A DNA stretch of 64,000 nt from Gemmatimonadota bacterium. Its GTDB lineage: Bacteria > Gemmatimonadota > Gemmatimonadetes > JACCXV01 > JAHWKZ01. Under the pieces are notes generated by a model that was given only the letters and a program-made list of their open reading frames with translations, searched no databases and had not been told where the DNA came from. The stretch spans positions 12,060 to 76,059 of the forward strand of contig DASRVA010000023.1 in assembly GCA_035687745.1 (NCBI GenBank). Direction: 5' to 3'. Numbering within the stretch: the stretch's first letter is position 1; every line of letters starts with the position of its first letter. The position numbers were made by a program, and so were the translations under genes. Of this stretch, positions 29,996-40,315 are shown one piece after another.

Positions 29996-30121
29996 GGTCC
30001 TCACTCCCAATGAAGTTGGTCGCGTTGGCTGGGCAGGGATTCTTTCGAAGAGGCGAATATAGCCTCACCCGGACCGGTCGGGCGACCGCCCGGCGTCAGG
30101 CGGTCGGGCGACCGCCCATGG

Positions 30122-30583
30122 TCAGCCGGACTCGCTGGTGTGGTCGTGGACGATGACCCAGCGGCCTTCCACGTCCCTGAGGATGAGCGTGAAGATGCCG
30201 CCCCGTGGCCCCTCCGCGGTGTCCAGCGCCCAGCGACCCAGGACCCAGGCGCTTCCGCGTCCGAGGGCGTGGACCTCGAGGTCGGAGAACGAGAGCGTCC
30301 CCATGGTCTCGGTCCGCTCCCCATAGGCTGCCCGATATCGGTCGAGCGTGGTCTTCCATCCGCGCTGGACGCGGCCGCCCGACGTGAAAACCAGGTCCGG
30401 GCTCCGCCAGTAGCCGTCCATGAAGCCCTCCAGGTCGCCCTGGTTCCAGGCCTGCACCTGGCTCCTGAGGACGCCCAGGACGTGCTCCCGCACGTCGGCC
30501 TCGCCGCCCGCCCCCATGGAAGCGCACCCCGACCCGAGCGCGATCAGGGCGATGGGCATCGTGCCGGCCAACCACGGCTTCAT
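30122..30583 (-). CDS. SnoaL-like/DUF4440 (NTF2-fold) lipoprotein
   Basis: ATG at 30583 overlaps the upstream TGA (ATGA). Signal peptide plus lipobox MKPWLAGTMPIALIALGSGC. Track ORF 30122..31675 is over-extended into the peptidase gene. Confidence 0.7.
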   Translation of the reverse strand: MKPWLAGTMPIALIALGSGCASMGAGGEADVREHVLGVLRSQVQAWNQGDLEGFMDGYWRSPDLVFTSGGRVQRGWKTTLDRYRAAYGERTETMGTLSFSDLEVHALGRGSAWVLGRWALDTAEGPRGGIFTLILRDVEGRWVIVHDHTSESG

Positions 30584-32484
30584 CGGGCTTCCTCGAGGTC
30601 GATGTCCAGCTCGAGCGGCCGCCCGTCGCGCTCGACGACCAGCCGGGCCGACCCGCCGGGGATGCTGCGCTGGAGCGCGCGGACGTAGTCGTAGATGGAT
30701 TCGACCGGAATCCCGTCCAGCGAGAGGACCCTGTCGCCGGGCTCCACGCCGGCCTGATCCGCCGGCGAGCCCGCCTCGATCCGCTCGACGACGACCGGCT
30801 CGCCCGGACCGGCAGGGACGGGCACCGCGCCGAGCCGGCGCCCGACGCTCACCGGCCGGTCGGGGGGCTGCGTGGCCGGGGTCTCGGAGCGCTTCTCCGC
30901 CAGCTCGTACGGGCTCGGTTGGAAGGTGGGACTCTTCCCCGTGCCGGCGAGCCGTCCGACGAGCTGACGGACGAAGGTCGACACCTGTGTCAGCCCCTCG
31001 TAGTCGAGCAGGTCGGCGTCGTCGGAGGCCCGGTGGTAGTCCTGGTGGACGCCGGTGAACAGGGCGAGCACGGGCACCTGGCGCAGGTAGAAGGGAGCGT
31101 GGTCGGAGGGTCCATACCCCTCGGCCATGAGGCGCAGGGGAAGGTCGAGGTCCTCGTTGGCCTTCTGCAGCAGGTCGGGCCACGCTCCGCTGGATCCGAC
31201 CCCGTAGACGATGAGCTCGTTCCGCAGCCGTCCCACCATGTCCATGTTGATCATGGCCGTCACGCTCGAAAGCGGGACGACCGGGTGGCTCACGAAGTGG
31301 GCCGACCCGAGCATCCCCTCCTCTTCGGCCCCAAACGCCACAAATACGATGGTGCGCGCGGGCCGGTTTGCGCGGAAGGAGAAGTGCTGCGCGAGCTCGA
31401 TCAGCGCGGCGACCCCGCTGGCGTTGTCGTCCGCGCCGTTGTGGACCTCCCCCGGGACCGGCTCCAGCGAGCCCTCGCCGCCGAGACCCAGGCCGTCGTA
31501 GTGGGCGCCCACGACCACCGCTTCGCTCGCGAGATCCGCGTCGTGCCCCCCGACGATCCCGATCACGTTGTGGGTGGTCCGGGTCCGGGGCTTCAGGTCC
31601 GAGCGGAGATTCACGACGGCGTCCGCGACGACGCGGCTCCTGGGCTCGAGCGAGCCGTCGATCTCGCGCTGCCAATGGGCCAGATCCCCCCCGCCCATGC
31701 CCGCGATCCGCTGCCCGACCGCCTGGCTGACCGAGAGGGCCACGATGCCGAGGCTGCCCGGTTCGGCATCCATCTGGAACGGGATCAGCCGGTCGATCTC
31801 GTCGGTCGCCGGACCGCTCACGAACAGGATCGCCCGGGCGCCGTGGGCGGCGGCGGTGGCGGCCTTGTAGCGCTCGGAGAGGAAGCGGCCGAAGCGGCCG
31901 GCCGGATCGTCGCCGCCGGGCGCGTACCGCAGGACCATCACCACCTTGCCGCGGACGTCGATGCCGGCGTAGTCGTCGTACTCCATCTCGGGGGCGCTGA
32001 TCCCGTAGCCGGCGAAGACAACCGGCTGGACCACGCGGTCGGCGAGCGATCCGGCCAGCGGCAGGAAGTCCCGGCCGGGCTCGTACACGATCACGCGCCG
32101 GTCACCGTGCTGGAGGACGAGCCGGTTCTCGCGTCCCAGCTCGACCCCGATCGCGAACTCGAACGTCTGGAGGTAGGCCGGATGGTCGGACGGGGCCTCG
32201 AGGCCGGCCGCCTTGAACGCCCGCACGACGTACCGGGCCGCGCGCTCGGCGCCCGGTGTGCCGGCCCGCCGACCCGCCAGCTCGCTGTCGGCCAGATGGC
32301 CGACATGCCCCTCGAGCTCCCCGCGTGTGATGAGCGGGGACGCATCGCCGACCGATGCCGCTCCGGAGCCTACCGCGCCCGCGACCTGGGCCAGCGAGCG
32401 GTCGACGGGGACGGCCCCGAGGGCGCACACGAGCGCGAGACCCGCCAGCCGGCGGCCGATGCCTCGTTCCGGGAACGACGTCAC
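30580..32484 (-). CDS. M28-family peptidase with PA and C-terminal PDZ domains (secreted)
   Basis: M28 zinc-ligand motifs HYDGLG, NGADDNASG, FGAEEEG. C-terminal PDZ-like region. Signal peptide. Confidence 0.85.
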   Translation of the reverse strand: MTSFPERGIGRRLAGLALVCALGAVPVDRSLAQVAGAVGSGAASVGDASPLITRGELEGHVGHLADSELAGRRAGTPGAERAARYVVRAFKAAGLEAPSDHPAYLQTFEFAIGVELGRENRLVLQHGDRRVIVYEPGRDFLPLAGSLADRVVQPVVFAGYGISAPEMEYDDYAGIDVRGKVVMVLRYAPGGDDPAGRFGRFLSERYKAATAAAHGARAILFVSGPATDEIDRLIPFQMDAEPGSLGIVALSVSQAVGQRIAGMGGGDLAHWQREIDGSLEPRSRVVADAVVNLRSDLKPRTRTTHNVIGIVGGHDADLASEAVVVGAHYDGLGLGGEGSLEPVPGEVHNGADDNASGVAALIELAQHFSFRANRPARTIVFVAFGAEEEGMLGSAHFVSHPVVPLSSVTAMINMDMVGRLRNELIVYGVGSSGAWPDLLQKANEDLDLPLRLMAEGYGPSDHAPFYLRQVPVLALFTGVHQDYHRASDDADLLDYEGLTQVSTFVRQLVGRLAGTGKSPTFQPSPYELAEKRSETPATQPPDRPVSVGRRLGAVPVPAGPGEPVVVERIEAGSPADQAGVEPGDRVLSLDGIPVESIYDYVRALQRSIPGGSARLVVERDGRPLELDIDLEEAR

Positions 32485-32529
32485 AGGGGGTAAATATGAA
32501 ACCGCGAGCGCGCGTTGGCGAACCGCGAT

Positions 32530-33285
32530 TCAACGCCCTCGCCGGGCCACGACCTCCAGCCATGAGTTCCATCCCATCGCGTCGAACCCGCGGTGGACGA
32601 TCCGCTGCCACGGTCCCCGTCTCTTGGCGTCCGCCCGCGTCCGGGCATGCAGCGGTTGGAAGCCGTGCTTCTCCAGCAGCCGGATCAGGGTCCCGCGCTC
32701 GAAGAACGTCAGGTGGTGTCCCGGAGAGAGGTGCCGGAAGGGGCGCGGCTTGAGACCCAGGCGGCTCCAGAAGCTCTTCGAGCGGGACGTGAAGCTCGCC
32801 TCGTTCGGGACGAGCAGGTGCATGATCCCGGTCTCCACCAGCAGGCGGCGGACGGCGACCAGAAACCGGTTCGGGTCGAGGACGTGCTCGAGCACGTGAT
32901 GAGCGGCCACGACGTCGAACGGAGGCAGGTCCAGCTCCTCAACCGGTCCCACGTGGAAGGGAATCCCGGCGCGGGCGAAGGCCGCCTCGTTGGCGGACGA
33001 GATGTCCGCGCCGACCAGCCGGCCGAACCGTCCGCTGTCCCGTGCCAGACGGAGAAAGCTTCCCGTTCCCGCACCCACGTCGAGAAGCGAGGGCCGCTCC
33101 CGGGGCCGGAAGCGGAGGATCAGCTCGATCGAGGCCGCGTCCCGCTCCCGGACCAGGTCGCCCCCTTCCGCATCACGCTCCCGCGCGCGATGGCGCTCGA
33201 AGTAGCGGCTTCCGTAGATCCGCCGGTTCTCCTCGGGGCTTCGGCGAGGATTCAGATAGCGCAGGCCGCACCTGCGGCACCGCAC
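32530..33285 (-). CDS. Class I SAM-dependent methyltransferase (N-terminal zinc ribbon possibly truncated by the start call)
   Basis: SAM motif LLDVGAGTGSF. GTG start at 33285. An in-frame upstream CPLC...(x17)...CRRC zinc ribbon extends to 33369 with no canonical start. Confidence 0.75.
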   Translation of the reverse strand: MRCRRCGLRYLNPRRSPEENRRIYGSRYFERHRARERDAEGGDLVRERDAASIELILRFRPRERPSLLDVGAGTGSFLRLARDSGRFGRLVGADISSANEAAFARAGIPFHVGPVEELDLPPFDVVAAHHVLEHVLDPNRFLVAVRRLLVETGIMHLLVPNEASFTSRSKSFWSRLGLKPRPFRHLSPGHHLTFFERGTLIRLLEKHGFQPLHARTRADAKRRGPWQRIVHRGFDAMGWNSWLEVVARRGR

Positions 33286-33365
33286 GATCCGATGACCCTG
33301 GTACTCGAGGCCCCACGGCTCGCCGTCGTCCGTTTCGCAGAGCGGGCAGTCGACATGCTCTTCGC

Positions 33366-34292
33366 TCAGGGGGATCCCTCGGCCCGGCGATCGGGATTCA
33401 GCCAGCGGGTCGCCTTGTCGGCGAGCCGGGCGTGCTCGATCTCGAAGTCACGCCGGAGGGCCTGCTGCCCCGCCCGATCCGAGACGTTGTCGATCGACAG
33501 CATCCGGAGCTGATCCCGTGTGACGGGCGGGGTCGGGAGCACGATCTCCATGACCGTCGCCGCCAAACGCAGCGGGGCCACGGGCATGGAAAGGATCGGC
33601 CGCCGGTGCCCGGTGACCTCCATCAGCGTCCGGACGATCTCCTTCAGCGTCATGATCTCGGGCCCGGCCACGTCGTACGCCGGCTCCGCCGTCCGGTGCA
33701 TGCGGGTCGCCTGCAGGAAGCACTCCGCCACGTCGCCGAGCCAGACGGGCTGGAAACGGGACCGGCCGCCTGCCGGGAGCGGCACGACGGGGCTCCACTC
33801 GAGGATCCGGACGAAGCGGTTGAAGAAGTCGTCGTCGCGCCCGAAGACCACGGACGGCCGGAAGATCGTGCTCTCGAGCCCCGCCTCGCGCACGATCTCC
33901 TCCGCCCGCCACTTGGTGCGGTAGTAGTCGCTGGCGTCCTGGCCCGCCTCGACCCCGAGGGCGCTCATGTGGACGTACCTCGAGATCCCGGCTCGTCGGG
34001 TCGCTTCGACAACGTTCCGCGTGCCCGCCACGTGGACGTCCTCGTAGGACTGGGCGCGCGTTTCGACGATGATGCCGACCAGATGGACGACGGTCTCGAC
34101 CCCTTCGAGCGCCTCGTGGAGCTCGTCCGGCCGGGATACATCGCCCCGGAAGAGCTCCACGTGCGGAAGACGGCCGAGCGCTTCGGCTTGCTCCGGATGG
34201 CGCGCCAGCCCGCGGACCCGCCAGCCCCGGCGGCTCGCCCGCCGCAGGATTTCGGCGCCGATGAAGCCGGTGGCTCCGGTGACCAGGATCAC
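33366..34292 (-). CDS. NAD(P)-dependent epimerase/dehydratase (NmrA/SDR-like) protein
   Basis: GTG start giving MILVTGATGFIG overlaps the trmB stop (GTGA). Track ORF 33366..35180 is over-extended. Confidence 0.75.
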   Translation of the reverse strand: MILVTGATGFIGAEILRRASRRGWRVRGLARHPEQAEALGRLPHVELFRGDVSRPDELHEALEGVETVVHLVGIIVETRAQSYEDVHVAGTRNVVEATRRAGISRYVHMSALGVEAGQDASDYYRTKWRAEEIVREAGLESTIFRPSVVFGRDDDFFNRFVRILEWSPVVPLPAGGRSRFQPVWLGDVAECFLQATRMHRTAEPAYDVAGPEIMTLKEIVRTLMEVTGHRRPILSMPVAPLRLAATVMEIVLPTPPVTRDQLRMLSIDNVSDRAGQQALRRDFEIEHARLADKATRWLNPDRRAEGSP

Positions 34293-35269
34293 TCCGGTCT
34301 CCGGCGATACCGCGCGCGATGGATCGGGCGCCCCTCGGCCCGGTACTTCCGCTCGTAGTTGGTGAGGTCCACCATGTCGGCCGGGACCTCCGCCGCCTCC
34401 AGGCGGGGCTCGGCGTCCAGGACGGCTCTCGCCTCGTCGAAGTACTCGCCGTGATCGGTGACGAGCCGGAGCTCGCCGCCCGGCTCGAGCGCCTCGGCCA
34501 GCGCGCCCGCGAAGGCCGGCGTGACGAGCCGCCGCTTGTGGTGCCGCTTCTTGGGCCACGGATCGGGGAAGTAGACGTGGACGGCGCGCACCGAGCCGGT
34601 CGGCACGGCCTCCTCGAGGAGCCGCCCGGCGTCCGCCCTCACCACACGGACGTTCCTCAGGTCGCGACGGCGAATCCGGTCGCGCAGCCCCTCGGCATAG
34701 GCCCCCGCCCATTCGATCGACAGGAACGCGGTGTCGGGGGAGCGCGTCGCAGCGTCCACCAGAAAGCCGCCCTTGCCCGAGCCGATTTCGATCTCGACCG
34801 GACCCGGCCGGCCGAAAATCGCCTCCCAGTCGAGCGGCCTGGAGAGCCCGCTCTGGGGAAGCCGCGGGTCCCATTCCCCGGGCTCCGGATCGGGGGCGTA
34901 GCGGTAGCGATCGGTGAGGAAGTCCGGGATCGTGGTGCGGTCGATCTCCACGTCGGGATGATGGCGGACCACGGCCTCCGCCACGAGCGCGATCATCCGC
35001 TTGACCGACGGCGTCACGTCGAGCGGCGGCACCGGATAGGGTCTGACGACGACGCTGGCGTCGCCTTCCCGCTGCGAGAGATGCACGAAGAAGCGTCGCG
35101 GACGGCCGTCCCGGACGACGAGGCACTCGGCGAGGGCGTGATGTCCGTCGCCGTTCAGGAACAGGTCCCTCAGCCGCCACACCGTGTCTCCCGCGCGCTC
35201 GACGAACGGGTCGATCCCCTCGATCAGCTCGTGGAGGGGGGAGCTCGTTTCAAGGACGACGTGGGGCAC
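34289..35269 (-). CDS. trmB: tRNA (guanine-N7)-methyltransferase TrmB with N-terminal extension
   Basis: C-terminal core EIGSGKGGFL...VYFPDPWPKKRHHKRRL is diagnostic of TrmB. Confidence 0.8.
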   Translation of the reverse strand: MPHVVLETSSPLHELIEGIDPFVERAGDTVWRLRDLFLNGDGHHALAECLVVRDGRPRRFFVHLSQREGDASVVVRPYPVPPLDVTPSVKRMIALVAEAVVRHHPDVEIDRTTIPDFLTDRYRYAPDPEPGEWDPRLPQSGLSRPLDWEAIFGRPGPVEIEIGSGKGGFLVDAATRSPDTAFLSIEWAGAYAEGLRDRIRRRDLRNVRVVRADAGRLLEEAVPTGSVRAVHVYFPDPWPKKRHHKRRLVTPAFAGALAEALEPGGELRLVTDHGEYFDEARAVLDAEPRLEAAEVPADMVDLTNYERKYRAEGRPIHRARYRRRPE

Positions 35270-35339
35270 GGTCTCAGCGGGCCGGCGTGGCCCTGTCTCA
35301 CACGGAGGTTTCGAACTTCAGGAGGCCATATTCAGCGGC

Positions 35340-36125
35340 CTACCCGGAAATCTCTTCGCCGCCGTCCACCCCGATCACATTCCCCGTGATCCATCGGGTC
35401 TCCGGCCGCGCCAGCGCGATCAGCGCCTGCGCGACGTCCTCCGGCGTCGTCAGCCGGCGGTGCGGGTTGCGGGCACGGGCGGCCTCGACCATCCGCTCGT
35501 GGCCGGGGATCTTGCGGAGGGCCGGGGTGTCGGTGACGCCCGCCCGGATGGCGTTCACGGTGATGCCGAGGGGAGCCAGCTCCAGCGCGAGCTGGCGCGT
35601 GTGGGCCTCCAGGGCCGCCTTGGCCGCCGACACGGCGCCGTACGTGGGCCAGGCGTGGCCGTCGCCGGTCGATGTCATCGAGAAGACGCGGCCGCCTTCC
35701 CCCATCAGGTCGGCCCGCACGAGCTCCTGGATCCAGTACACCAGGGTGTTGGCCATGACATCGAGGGTCATGTCGAGCTCGCGTTGGGCCAGCCCCGCCT
35801 TCCCCTCCGGATCGATGTACGGCTTGAGGGTCCCGAAGGCGAGCGAGTGGAGGACGACCCGCACCTTCTCGCCCGACTCCGCGAGGCGTTCGGCGACGTG
35901 CTGCACGACCTCCCCGCGCTTCTCTGGGTCGGCGGCGTTCACGTTGAAGAACTCGACCTCGACACCGGTCTCCTTGATCGCCTCAACGACCTCGTCGACG
36001 TGACCGAGCGTCGACTTCCGATCGAGATGAACGCCGAAGACGTTCGTGCCGGCGGCGGCGAAGGCGCGGGCGGCGGCCTCCCCGAAGCCGCTCGATGAAC
36101 CCAGGATGAGTGCCCAGTCGGCCAC
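35340..36125 (-). CDS. Short-chain dehydrogenase/reductase (enoyl-ACP reductase FabL-like)
   Basis: GTG start with SD AGGAGC. LILGSSSGFG NAD(P)-binding motif. Catalytic YxxxK region (PTYGAVSAAK). Confidence 0.75.
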   Translation of the reverse strand: MADWALILGSSSGFGEAAARAFAAAGTNVFGVHLDRKSTLGHVDEVVEAIKETGVEVEFFNVNAADPEKRGEVVQHVAERLAESGEKVRVVLHSLAFGTLKPYIDPEGKAGLAQRELDMTLDVMANTLVYWIQELVRADLMGEGGRVFSMTSTGDGHAWPTYGAVSAAKAALEAHTRQLALELAPLGITVNAIRAGVTDTPALRKIPGHERMVEAARARNPHRRLTTPEDVAQALIALARPETRWITGNVIGVDGGEEISG

Positions 36126-36144
36126 GTTCGCTCCTGCGGATGGA

Positions 36145-36206
36145 GGGCGAGGATTCGTCCTCTGACGCGGCCGAGGATTCGTCCTCTGACGCGTCGGAGG
36201 ATTCCG
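36145..36206. repeat. Tandem 24-bp-period repeat (three copies of GAGGATTC; two full copies contain the palindrome GAGGAttcgTCCTC) in the divergent promoter region
   Basis: Direct reading: copies begin at 36149, 36173 and 36197. Confidence 0.6.
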
Positions 36207-36319
36207 GCCGCTGCGCGGCGAGCCGCGCGGATCGGGCGCACAAGGTAGCCGTGCCCGCGCGGCCCTGCTACCGGCTTCCGCGTGGGGCGGTGGGTTGAGG
36301 GGACGGCTAATTTGGGCCC

Positions 36320-37717
36320 GTGCCGACTGGTGGACCAGGCCCGCTGCGATCGATCGTGTTCGGGCTCGCGGTCGCGGCGGCCGTCGGGTGCGCTCCCTCC
36401 ACCGGTGGCGAGGACGGGCTTCCCGACTGGCCGGACCGCCTGCCGGCCGCCGCCTCGTTCGGGGCCCCCCGGGGCCTGCTCCCGCGCCGCGCCATCGTCC
36501 ACGTCCACTCGGTCTACAGCCACGATGCATGTGACGAAGCCGCGCAGGACGAGCTCGGGCGGACGAACGAGCCCTGCCTGGAGCGGTTCCGCCGCGCGCT
36601 CTGCCAGGCCCGGGTCGACGTCGCCTTCCTGACCGAGCACGACCGCTGGCTGGTGCGGGCCGACTCGCTGGCCGAGGCGCTGCTCTTCCGGGCCGGAGAC
36701 CGGCCGGTGACGGTCGAGGGCCGGCTGGTGGGCAACCGGCTTTCCTGCGGCACGCTCCTCTTCGCGGGGGCGGAGAACGTCCTCATGCCGGTCGCGTTCG
36801 ACTCGCTCCCGGGCGGATCGCGCGAGGAGCGCCAGGCCTTCTACGACGCCCAGGGGCCGGACGCGACGGAGGCGTTCCATCGCTACGGCGCGGTCGTGCT
36901 CATGCCGCACCCCGAGAGCGCGTCCCTCGCACGAATCTCCGCCCTCCGACCGGACGGGATCGAGGTCTACAACCCGCACTCGAACTTCGCGCCGAGGCAC
37001 CGGCGGGCGCAGGGGCTGTCGCGGCTGGGAGCGTTCGTCGGGCTGGCCCCGTTCGTCCTGCGGCTCACCGACGCCCATCCCGACCTCGCCCTCTTCTCCA
37101 TCTTCCACGCCAACCATGCCGCCATCGATCGGTGGGACGCGCTCCTCTCACGGCGCATGGTATTCGGCTTCGGGGCCTCGGATGCGCACGAGAACGCGCT
37201 GCCGATCGTTCTCGCCGACGGCGACCGGGGCGACTCGTACTTCCGTATGCTGCCCTGGGTCACGAACGCCTTCCTGGTCGAGCCGCCGGGTGGCCCCGCC
37301 CAAGTCGAGGCCGCGCTTCGCAGGGGCCGTTTCTACGCGGTCATCGAGGCGTGGGGGACGCCGGCGGGATTCGACTTCCACGTCCGGGACCGGCGCGGGG
37401 CGGTGGAGATGGGGAGGACTCTCCGCTTCGTCCCGGGGCAGCGGCTGGTCGTCCGGCGGCCGGTCGTCCACGGCCGCGCGGCCACGCTCGCGGAGCCGGA
37501 GATCCGGATCCGGATCTACCGGATCGAAGGCCGGTCACGGACGGTGGTGGCCGAGAGCGGAGGATCGCTCGACGTGCCGGTGCCCGGGCCGGGCGCCTAC
37601 CGGGTCGAGGTGGGGATCGTTCCGCGCCATCTATCCCCCTACCTCGGGAACGGCGACGGGTACGATCTTCCCGAGGTGCCCTGGATCTATTCGAATCCCG
37701 TTCGGATCCTCCCATGA
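36320..37717 (+). CDS. Lipoprotein with PHP-like metal-dependent phosphoesterase motif (hypothetical)
   Basis: Lipobox AAVGCA. HVHSVYSHDA motif. Confidence 0.55.
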   Translation: MPTGGPGPLRSIVFGLAVAAAVGCAPSTGGEDGLPDWPDRLPAAASFGAPRGLLPRRAIVHVHSVYSHDACDEAAQDELGRTNEPCLERFRRALCQARVDVAFLTEHDRWLVRADSLAEALLFRAGDRPVTVEGRLVGNRLSCGTLLFAGAENVLMPVAFDSLPGGSREERQAFYDAQGPDATEAFHRYGAVVLMPHPESASLARISALRPDGIEVYNPHSNFAPRHRRAQGLSRLGAFVGLAPFVLRLTDAHPDLALFSIFHANHAAIDRWDALLSRRMVFGFGASDAHENALPIVLADGDRGDSYFRMLPWVTNAFLVEPPGGPAQVEAALRRGRFYAVIEAWGTPAGFDFHVRDRRGAVEMGRTLRFVPGQRLVVRRPVVHGRAATLAEPEIRIRIYRIEGRSRTVVAESGGSLDVPVPGPGAYRVEVGIVPRHLSPYLGNGDGYDLPEVPWIYSNPVRILP

Positions 37718-40239: not shown

Positions 40240-40315
40240 TCCCCGGTAGCTCAGTTGGTAGAGCAGGTGGCTGTTAACCACCGTGTCGCTGGTTCGAGTC
40301 CGGCCCGGGGAGCCA
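40240..40315 (+). tRNA. tRNA-Asn (anticodon GTT), CCA encoded
   Basis: Cloverleaf folded by hand: acceptor TCCCCGG/CCGGGGA, anticodon stem GGTGG/CCACC with loop CTGTTAA, T-arm GCTGG-TTCGAGT-CCGGC, 3' GCCA. Followed by TTCTTCTTTTTC. Confidence 0.9.

What the first reader, a model, noticed from the sequence alone, without database searches (positions are those of the whole stretch)
32530..33369. Methyltransferase zinc ribbon truncated by the only canonical start; possible CTG start overlapping the upstream TGA
The SAM methyltransferase is called from the GTG at 33285. The same frame continues upstream for 28 codons to 33369, encoding SEEHVDCPLCETDDGEPWGLEYQGHRIVRCRRCG, a complete C-x2-C...C-x2-C zinc ribbon of which the GTG start keeps only the second half. 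There is no ATG/GTG/TTG in this stretch, only a CTG at 33369..33367 that overlaps the epimerase stop as CTGA, with GAGGGA 4 nt upstream. GTGA/ATGA coupling is the rule in this genome, so a CTG start (or a sequence error) is plausible.
Basis: seen in the sequence. Interest (0 to 1): 0.5.

Follow-up and report, generated by a model that had tools for sequence, protein, structure and literature searches.

The report
Methyltransferase start codon mutated to CTG
In this Gemmatimonadota lineage one G-to-C change turned the conserved GTG start of a zinc-ribbon methyltransferase into CTG, so gene finders start the gene 28 codons late and cut its zinc site in half; the gene is otherwise intact and is probably still read, weakly, from the CTG.

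Summary
On the minus strand the methyltransferase frame is open from 33447. Its first ATG/GTG/TTG is GTG 33285. CTG 33369-33367 overlaps the epimerase stop as CTGA. The 28 codons in between encode the first Cys pair (CPLC) of a CxxC...CxxC ribbon.

All close orthologs (76-96% identity, 278-284 aa) carry the full ribbon. They start at or 3-5 codons upstream of the CTG-equivalent codon, always with GTGA or ATGA overlapping the epimerase stop. The nearest relative reads tccccGTGAgc; the window reads tccccCTGAgc. That is one G-to-C change, synonymous (CCG to CCC) in the epimerase.

The same CTGA is present in four other assemblies (99.8-99.97% identical), so it is not a sequencing error. GTG 33285 is an ordinary Val codon (GTC/GTT in orthologs). 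The deposited 251-aa protein (HET6340843.1) is therefore N-terminally truncated by annotation.

dN/dS (0.11-0.12) shows no relaxation, but the test has little power.

Most likely the gene is still initiated at CUG, helped by coupling to the epimerase, at a much reduced rate. This is inferred, not shown. The main rival is a young start-loss allele.

The case is a rare but known kind of event: modest interest.

The parts
32530..33369 (-). Full-length methyltransferase reading frame: 279 codons plus TGA. It consists of an N-terminal zinc ribbon and a class I SAM methyltransferase domain.
   Evidence: Translation. Pfam Methyltransf_23 scores 71.5 bits against a cut-off of 27. Orthologs of 278-284 aa cover 99-100% of it. 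AlphaFold2 gives pLDDT 93 and pTM 0.91.
33367..33369 (-). CTG at the position of the ancestral start codon. This is the proposed non-canonical initiation codon.
   Evidence: It aligns with the GTG or ATG start of L009, L010, L011-L016, L017 and L003. The same CTG is found in L005-L008.
33366..33368 (-). TGA stop of the upstream SDR-type epimerase/reductase gene. It overlaps the CTG as CTGA.
   Evidence: Gene calls on L005/L006 end the 308-aa epimerase here.
33283..33285 (-). GTG used as the start by gene callers (deposited 251-aa protein HET6340843.1). It is really Val29 of the protein.
   Evidence: The codon is GTC or GTT in orthologs L001-L004, so it is not a conserved start.
33337..33348 (-). 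First zinc knuckle, CPLC (Cys8, Cys11). The annotated start removes it.
   Evidence: C8 is invariant and C11 nearly invariant in 27 orthologs.
33268..33279 (-). Second zinc knuckle, CRRC (Cys31, Cys34).
   Evidence: C31 and C34 are invariant.
33373..33380 (-). Shine-Dalgarno-like GAGGGATC inside the end of the epimerase gene. The GAGG core lies 7 nt upstream of the CTG.
   Evidence: Duplex with a generic anti-SD is -6.4 kcal/mol, against -3.8 for GTG 33285. However, 31% of background positions reach -6. With the longer generic 16S tail it is -11.0, against -8.5 and -6.1 in the nearest relatives. This is weak evidence.
33369..33373 (-). Run of five C directly before the TGA, created by the same G-to-C change. 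It is the site of the speculative -1 P-site slip into the methyltransferase frame.
   Evidence: Read from the sequence. There is no downstream stimulatory structure: z = +1.37.
33366..34292 (-). Upstream partner gene: a 308-aa NAD(P)-binding SDR 'epimerase'. Its own GTG start overlaps the TrmB stop as GTGA (34292-34289).
   Evidence: Pfam NAD_binding_10 and Epimerase. HpnA-like, but below the curated cut-off. Junction listed. Gene calls.

Best explanation
The real gene is the 279-codon frame 33369-32530. It encodes an N-terminal four-cysteine zinc ribbon fused to a class I SAM methyltransferase.

In the ancestor its GTG start overlapped the TGA of the upstream epimerase gene as GTGA. This is a stop-start overlap of the kind used for termination-reinitiation coupling.

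In this species-level lineage one G-to-C transversion changed GTG to CTG. The change is silent in the epimerase (Pro308, CCG to CCC). Gene callers accept only ATG, GTG and TTG. They therefore fall back on an internal Val codon (GTG 33285) and report a 251-aa protein with half a zinc site.

Most likely ribosomes finishing the epimerase, held by the GAGG Shine-Dalgarno-like motif, still initiate with fMet-tRNA on the CUG. The rate would be a small fraction of the ancestral one, so the full-length enzyme is made at a lowered level.

Shown: the anatomy, the ancestral start, the single substitution, its reproducibility and the intact frame. Inferred: that CUG is used, and how efficiently.
For: 1. 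Family-wide conservation of the ribbon.
- All 26 orthologs aligned have the full ribbon (C8, C31 and C34 invariant, C11 in at least 90%) and lengths of 276-308 aa.
- 86 of 108 family proteins fetched have CxxC...CxxC. Among the 22 exceptions are short or N-terminally cut calls, more distant homologs and this window's own call.

2. Ancestral start at the DNA level. L009/L010 read tccccGTGAgc, L011-L016 tcccgGTGAgc, L017 tccccATGAag, L003 tctccGTGAac, L004/L018 ggaATGAtc, L001 ggGTGAgc and L002 ggATGAgc. Every one is an NTGA overlap with the epimerase stop.

3. Uniqueness. Among about 70 family loci with a full ribbon, only the window type lacks a canonical start between the upstream in-frame stop and Cys1.

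4. Reproducibility. The CTGA is identical in L005 (ERZ27257128), L006 (ERZ27257132), L007 (SRR5195115) and L008 (SRR5195114). These contigs differ from the window by 10, 7, 1 and 1 SNPs.

5. The annotated start is not conserved. GTG 33285 is GTC or GTT in orthologs.

6. No sign of decay.
- dN/dS is 0.114 for window-L009 and 0.121 for window-L011, against 0.142 for L009-L011.
- The window's terminal branch has 12 synonymous and 5 non-synonymous changes, no indel and no stop.

7. Structure. The ribbon is predicted with pLDDT 80-96 as three strands (16-21, 27-31, 37-39). A start at residue 29 would remove two of them.

8. Literature.
- CUG initiates at about 1-2% (range 0.02-3%) of AUG in E. coli (bioRxiv 10.1101/063800).
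- GUG-to-CUG switches are documented, at 1 in 5,080 ancestral GUG starts (PMC5622118).
- Four-nucleotide overlaps support termination-reinitiation (PMC6728339).

9. Accessibility. The RNA just downstream of the CTG is no more structured than shuffled sequence (z = +1.37).
Against: - No expression data exist for this uncultured organism.
- CUG is a poor initiator. Initiation complexes on CUG are less stable than on AUG, GUG or UUG (PMC11497404).
- Re-initiation in E. coli still needs fMet-tRNA and IF2 and is checked by IF3 (PMC2268962). Coupling therefore does not obviously relax codon choice.
- The selection test has little power. The substitution could be recent, and only about 2-5 changes fall in the 27 upstream codons.
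- The SD-like motif is not distinctive in this 70% G+C sequence: 31% of background positions score as well.
- Other in-frame near-cognate codons exist upstream: ATC 33375 and CTG about 33405.
Confidence: 0.6

Rival explanations
1. Start-loss allele. The G-to-C change effectively silenced the gene, or left only a truncated product from GTG 33285 that lacks two of the four zinc ligands. On this reading the methyltransferase is a very young pseudogene, or a dispensable gene on its way out.
For: - CUG is strongly discriminated against in bacteria.
- Such switches are extremely rare among conserved genes: 1 in 5,080.
- The change is silent in the epimerase, so it could hitch-hike or drift.
- Linkage of this methyltransferase to the epimerase is clade-specific, so the enzyme may be dispensable.
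Against: - The allele is fixed in five assemblies with strain-level SNPs.
- The 840-nt frame has no stop or indel, and all four Cys are kept.
- dN/dS is not raised relative to sister lineages.
- GTG 33285 has a weaker SD-like context (-3.8 kcal/mol) and is not a start in any relative.
Confidence: 0.3
2. Minus-one frameshift fusion. The substitution also created T-CCC-CC-TGA. While the ribosome pauses on the stop codon, peptidyl-tRNA-Pro could slip back one base on the C run. The ribosome would then read CTG as Leu and continue into the methyltransferase frame. The product would be an epimerase-methyltransferase fusion of about 587 aa (...AEGSP-LSEEHVDC...).
For: - The frame geometry fits. The methyltransferase frame is -1 relative to the epimerase, and CCC re-pairs perfectly one base back.
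- A stop codon in the A site is a known context for P-site slippage. This point rests on my own knowledge and was not checked here.
Against: - There is no X-XXY-YYZ heptamer.
- There is no downstream stimulatory structure (z = +1.37).
- The SD-like motif is 3 nt from the P-site codon. As I recall, that spacing is the one associated with +1 rather than -1 shifting.
- No natural epimerase-methyltransferase fusion appears among the 93 homologs, which are 214-402 aa long.
- Relatives make two separate proteins.
Confidence: 0.04
3. Sequencing or assembly error: the true base is G and the start is an ordinary GTG.
For: The window comes from a metagenome-assembled genome. Single-base consensus errors do occur in such assemblies.
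Against: - The identical CTGA is seen in four other contigs, from two ENA assemblies and two Logan assemblies of different runs.
- Each of these contigs carries its own SNPs elsewhere.
Confidence: 0.02

Closest known systems
Start-codon switches to CUG in prokaryotes (Belinky, Rogozin and Koonin 2017, PMC5622118)
   Same: A reconstructed ancestral GUG start is replaced by CUG in one lineage while the gene stays intact.
   Different: Here the start overlaps the upstream stop, and the change is synonymous in that upstream gene. It is documented in an uncultured Gemmatimonadota population, with the ancestral state seen in relatives about 95% identical in DNA.
Near-cognate initiation in E. coli (CUG, AUU, AUC, AUA; bioRxiv 10.1101/063800)
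   Same: The codon is CUG, expected to be read by the initiator tRNA with a first-position mismatch.
   Different: The efficiencies were measured in E. coli reporters with strong ribosome-binding sites. Nothing has been measured for this organism or for a re-initiation context.
NUGA stop-start overlaps translated by termination-reinitiation (Huber et al. 2019, PMC6728339; Yoo and RajBhandary 2008, PMC2268962)
   Same: Co-directional genes, a 4-nt overlap, an SD-like motif inside the upstream gene, and an arrangement conserved in all close relatives.
   Different: The N of NUGA is C. The studied pairs use AUG or GUG. Dependence on upstream translation has not been tested here.
Sugar C-3'-methyltransferases TcaB9, KijD1 and MtmC (PDB 3ndi, 5t6b, 4rv9)
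   Same: They are the best full-length structural matches to the model (TM-score 0.65-0.69 on the query, about 300 aligned columns). As I recall, they also have an N-terminal four-Cys zinc domain packed on a Rossmann methyltransferase domain.
   Different: Sequence identity is only 13-17%. They are about 405-419 aa long with an extra C-terminal domain that is absent here. No Pfam Methyltransf_13 or Methyltransf_14 match was found. The substrate here is unknown.

Membership tests
Class I SAM-dependent methyltransferase (Pfam Methyltransf_23, PF13489) | Profile match above the curated gathering score | tested here: met
   71.5 bits against a cut-off of 27, residues 74-241.
Class I SAM-dependent methyltransferase (Pfam Methyltransf_23, PF13489) | Glycine-rich SAM-binding motif I (D/E-x-G-x-G-x-G) | tested here: met
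   LLDVGAGTGSF is present. D97, G99 and G101 are invariant in 27 orthologs.
Class I SAM-dependent methyltransferase (Pfam Methyltransf_23, PF13489) | Rossmann-like alpha/beta fold | tested here: met
   The AlphaFold2 model has pLDDT 93. Foldseek finds more than 1,000 solved-structure chains at E <= 0.001, and the top 50 are almost all methyltransferases.
Zinc-ribbon-bearing sugar C-methyltransferases (Pfam Methyltransf_13 plus Methyltransf_14; TcaB9-like) | Match to the Methyltransf_13 zinc-binding domain profile | tested here: not met
   No such hit even at E <= 10 for the first 60 residues. Only sub-threshold zinc-ribbon hits were found: InsA ribbon E = 0.009, 16.2 bits against 26.1.
Zinc-ribbon-bearing sugar C-methyltransferases (Pfam Methyltransf_13 plus Methyltransf_14; TcaB9-like) | C-terminal Methyltransf_14 domain, total length about 400 aa | tested here: not met
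   The protein is 279 aa and has no such Pfam hit.
Bacterial genes initiated at a non-canonical CUG codon | No ATG/GTG/TTG in frame upstream of a conserved N-terminal domain, with a near-cognate codon at the position of the orthologous start | tested here: met
Bacterial genes initiated at a non-canonical CUG codon | The codon is real, not a sequence error | tested here: met
   Five concordant assemblies.
Bacterial genes initiated at a non-canonical CUG codon | Experimentally mapped N-terminus or initiating ribosome at the CUG | not testable with these tools
   The organism is uncultured and no proteomic or ribosome-profiling data are available here.
Translationally coupled pairs with a 4-nt stop-start overlap (termination-reinitiation) | Co-directional genes with the start codon overlapping the upstream stop by 4 nt, conserved among relatives | tested here: met
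   GTGA or ATGA in every relative examined; CTGA in the window.
Translationally coupled pairs with a 4-nt stop-start overlap (termination-reinitiation) | Shine-Dalgarno motif inside the upstream gene | tested here: inconclusive
   GAGG gives -6.4 kcal/mol, but 31% of background positions score as well.
Translationally coupled pairs with a 4-nt stop-start overlap (termination-reinitiation) | Downstream translation depends on upstream translation | not testable with these tools
   This needs a reporter with a premature stop in the upstream gene.
Programmed -1 ribosomal frameshift site | Slippery heptamer X-XXY-YYZ | tested here: not met
   The zero-frame codons are TCC CCC TGA. Only single-tRNA P-site slippage is possible.
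Programmed -1 ribosomal frameshift site | Stimulatory RNA structure a few nucleotides downstream | tested here: not met
   The 75 nt downstream fold at -21.4 kcal/mol against a shuffle mean of -25.7, z = +1.37.

The most novel reading that the evidence does not exclude
The single G-to-C change did two things at once. It removed the start codon, and it created a C5-UGA slip site. On this reading the methyltransferase is now made mainly as a -1 frameshift fusion to the epimerase (...AEGSP-LSEEHVDC...), turning two coupled proteins into one bifunctional enzyme.

A milder novel reading is that CUG is kept by selection to lower the methyltransferase:epimerase ratio. It would be compensated by the lineage-specific E306G change in the epimerase, which extends the SD-like motif to GAGGGAUC.
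Probability: 0.04. Interest if true: 0.6.

Novelty: new member of a known kind. Interest (0 to 1): 0.3.

Why it matters
Practical consequences:
- The deposited protein (HET6340843.1, 251 aa) and every automated call on this lineage are N-terminally truncated. They lack half of a conserved zinc site.
- The correct product is 279 aa.
- This shows how gene finders limited to ATG, GTG and TTG silently mis-annotate start-codon variants. Ortholog-aware checking of starts recovers them.

Biological interest:
- This is a clean natural case of a GUG-to-CUG switch at a 4-nt stop-start overlap, with the ancestral state preserved in relatives about 95% identical.
- It would make a convenient substrate for asking whether re-initiating ribosomes tolerate CUG better than de novo initiating ones.

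The phenomenon itself (rare non-canonical starts, start-codon turnover) is already known.

Tried and rejected
- An exact-pattern scan of metagenome contigs for the junction, degenerate at the start codon, found nothing. That collection evidently does not hold the JGI samples that carry the L011 type.
- The profile-based scan returned mostly distant homologs. It was useful only for the start-codon survey.
- A sequence search of the PDB gave no hit covering residues 1-40.
- Pfam on the first 60 residues gave only sub-threshold zinc-ribbon hits.
- NCBIfam gave no family assignment for the methyltransferase; BioC scored far below its cut-off.
- The promoter and terminator scan of 30000-36600 found nothing. 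It is uninformative for this phylum.
- A second CTGA junction whose CTG (26196-26194) lies in frame with the downstream gene was checked. The 29 upstream codons do not look like coding sequence, so it is not a second case.
- The two SNPs inside the methyltransferase among window-type contigs are synonymous. This cannot count as evidence of selection, because those contigs were retrieved by exact protein identity.
- The SD comparison with relatives assumes a generic 16S 3' tail and is only suggestive.
- A literature check of the TcaB9 zinc site failed because the paper is not in the library. That statement rests on memory.
Full report
**What is in the sequence**

All features are on the minus strand.
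- A 308-aa NAD(P)-binding SDR 'epimerase' gene (34292-33366) ends with TGA at 33368-33366.
- One base upstream of that TGA, in the -1 frame, lies CTG 33369-33367, so the two overlap as CTGA.
- That frame is open from the stop at 33450-33448 down to the TGA at 32532-32530.
- It has no ATG, GTG or TTG before GTG 33285-33283.
- The 28 codons from the CTG to that GTG read LSEEHVDCPLCETDDGEPWGLEYQGHRI.
- CPLC lies at 33348-33337 and the second pair, CRRC, at 33279-33268.

Two details need correcting. GAGGGA is 5 nt, not 4 nt, from the CTG. ATGA/GTGA overlaps are common in the window (9 junctions in a rough gene model) rather than 'the rule'.

**What the gene is**

- From the CTG the frame encodes a 279-aa protein with a Methyltransf_23 class I SAM methyltransferase domain (71.5 bits, cut-off 27).
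- The window is from a Gemmatimonadota metagenome-assembled genome.
- The protein as deposited is the 251-aa form starting at GTG 33285 (HET6340843.1).
- AlphaFold2 with 27 orthologs gives a confident model (pLDDT 93, pTM 0.91).
- In the model, residues 16-21, 27-31 and 37-39 form a small three-stranded sheet ahead of the Rossmann domain (pLDDT 80-96).
- The best full-length matches among solved structures are the sugar C-3'-methyltransferases MtmC, KijD1 and TcaB9 (TM-score 0.65-0.69 on the query).
- As I recall, these also carry an N-terminal four-Cys zinc domain. The paper could not be retrieved, so this is not checked.
- The window protein is not a member of that family. It has no Methyltransf_13 or Methyltransf_14 match and lacks their C-terminal domain.
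- Its substrate is unknown.

**Orthologs**

- A search of 5.8 billion proteins returned 93 homologs.
- The 26 closest full-length ones (38-91% identity, 276-308 aa) all carry the ribbon. C8, C31 and C34 are invariant and C11 is present in at least 90%.
- Members of the 90% cluster that holds the window's own protein are 279-283 aa. They begin V/MSKEHVDCPICE, MKGERVECPICE or MIPVNGERVDCPICE.
- Of 108 family proteins fetched, 86 have CxxC...CxxC. The 22 exceptions include short or N-terminally cut calls, more distant homologs and the window's own 251-aa call.

**The junction at the DNA level**

I fetched the encoding contigs and read the junction in register.

| Locus | Note | Junction |
|---|---|---|
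| L009/L010 | 94.5% nt identity; GCA_050732815.1 | gaggaatccccGTGAgcaag |
| L011-L016 | 95.5% nt identity; six JGI samples | gaggaatcccgGTGAgcaag |
| L017 | | ggggaatccccATGAagggg |
| L003 | | ggagtctccGTGAacgtg |
| L004/L018 | | gaggaATGAtccct |
| L001 | | gaagggGTGAgcgcg |
| L002 | | gaaggATGAgcgtg |
| window | | gagggatccccCTGAgcgaa |

- In every relative the methyltransferase start overlaps the epimerase stop as GTGA or ATGA.
- Against L009 the difference at the start is one G-to-C transversion. It is synonymous in the epimerase (Pro308, CCG to CCC) and converts GTG to CTG in the methyltransferase.
- In a survey of about 70 family loci with a full ribbon, only the window-type contigs lack a canonical start between the upstream in-frame stop and the first Cys.
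- The codon that gene callers use, GTG 33285, is GTC or GTT in orthologs. It is simply Val29.

**Not an error**

- The exact 251-aa protein is called on four further contigs from four samples: ENA ERZ27257128 and ERZ27257132, and Logan SRR5195115 and SRR5195114.
- All four have the identical CTGA.
- They are 99.79-99.97% identical to the window over 2.4-4.8 kb and carry their own SNPs: 10, 7, 1 and 1.
- The allele is therefore real and fixed in a species-level population. Its nearest sampled relatives, about 95% identical, keep GTG.

**Is the gene decaying?**

- Pairwise dN/dS for the methyltransferase is 0.114 (window-L009) and 0.121 (window-L011), against 0.142 for L009-L011.
- The neighbouring epimerase and M28 peptidase give 0.18-0.21.
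- By parsimony the window's terminal branch carries 12 synonymous and 5 non-synonymous nucleotide changes (K3E, I10L, I273V, P279R). There is no indel or stop. The sister branches show 17:7 and 12:7.
- So there is no sign of relaxed constraint.
- The power is low. The start mutation may be recent, and only a handful of changes fall in the 27 upstream codons.

**Mechanism**

The conserved NTGA overlap places this pair among the stop-start overlaps shown to be translated by termination-reinitiation (PMC6728339). The following points bear on whether the CUG is used.
- An SD-like GAGG lies 7 nt upstream of the CTG. It pairs at -6.4 kcal/mol with a generic anti-SD, against -3.8 for GTG 33285. However, 31% of background positions do as well.
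- The RNA just downstream is not unusually structured (z = +1.37).
- In E. coli, CUG initiates at roughly 1-2% (range 0.02-3%) of AUG (bioRxiv 10.1101/063800).
- CUG complexes are intrinsically less stable (PMC11497404).
- Re-initiation still requires fMet-tRNA and IF2 and is checked by IF3 (PMC2268962).

My best reading is that the full-length protein is still made from the CUG, by ribosomes delivered by epimerase translation, at a much reduced level.
- The evolutionary and annotation part of this statement is close to certain.
- The claim that CUG is used is an inference. I put it at about 0.6.
- A lineage-specific E306G change in the epimerase (GAA to GGA) extends the motif to GAGGGAUC. That pairs better with a generic 16S tail: -11.0 against -8.5 and -6.1 in the nearest relatives. 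It could be compensatory, but this is only suggestive.

**Rivals**

- **(a) A young start-loss allele (about 0.3).** The gene is silent or yields only a truncated product with half a zinc site. This fits the poor efficiency of CUG and the rarity of such switches: 1 in 5,080 ancestral GUG starts (PMC5622118). It is not excluded by the weak selection test.
- **(b) A -1 P-site slip on the newly created C5 run before UGA (about 0.04).** This would fuse the epimerase to the methyltransferase. The frames fit. However, there is no slippery heptamer, no stimulatory structure and no natural fusion among the homologs.
- **(c) Sequencing error (about 0.02).** This is rejected by five concordant assemblies.

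**Verdict**

- It is a new instance of a known, rare kind of event: a canonical start replaced by CTG at a coupled gene junction, leading to a systematically truncated annotation.
- It is worth correcting in the annotation. It is also a neat natural test case for CUG re-initiation, but it is not a new kind of system.

Noticed in passing
L002 2988-3030 (JBOHRQ010000002.1) versus protein P0005: The deposited ortholog P0005 starts at a GTG (MAVTGERVDC). An ATG two codons upstream overlaps the epimerase stop as ATGA (MSVAVTGERVDC). Start annotation is therefore inconsistent among orthologs even where the starts are canonical.
   Followed up: partly
window 33375-33377 (-), epimerase codon 306: There is a lineage-specific E306G change (GAA to GGA), 6-8 nt upstream of the CTG. 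It turns GAGGAA into GAGGGA(TC) and improves predicted pairing with a generic 16S 3' tail: -11.0 against -8.5 and -6.1 kcal/mol in the nearest relatives. It may compensate for the weak start codon, or it may be coincidence.
   Followed up: partly
L005 2856-4706 versus L006 2802-4706 (window 30580-32484, -): The M28/PDZ peptidase downstream of the methyltransferase is called as 616 aa on one contig and 634 aa on a near-identical one. The cause is probably the SNP at window 32430, which lies between the two alternative starts.
   Followed up: no
protein P0033 (281 aa, 35% identity; JGI/Logan/ENA): This distant homolog begins MRGGAHQRWGLGVATRIVRCRRCG, so it has only the second Cys pair. It may be another mis-called start, or a natural half-ribbon variant.
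   Followed up: no
window 30122-35269 (-): Five co-directional genes run in order: TrmB-like (326 aa, with a long N-terminal extension), epimerase, methyltransferase, M28/PDZ peptidase and a SnoaL/DUF4440 protein. Three of the four junctions are 4-nt overlaps: GTGA at 34292-34289, CTGA at 33369-33366 and ATGA at about 30586-30583. The order is conserved in relatives L009 and L011. More distant methyltransferase homologs have different upstream neighbours: an E2 succinyltransferase-like gene in L020 and a glycosyltransferase-like gene in L022. Both of those identifications are by eye from the translation.
   Followed up: partly
window 40240-40315 (+): A tRNA-Asn (GTT) gene. It is the only Rfam or ARAGORN hit in the 64-kb window.
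   Followed up: no
window 26196-26194 (-): A second CTGA junction has its CTG in frame with the downstream gene, whose first ATG lies 29 codons later. The intervening peptide ([29 protein letters not shown]) does not look like coding sequence, so this is probably chance.
   Followed up: partly
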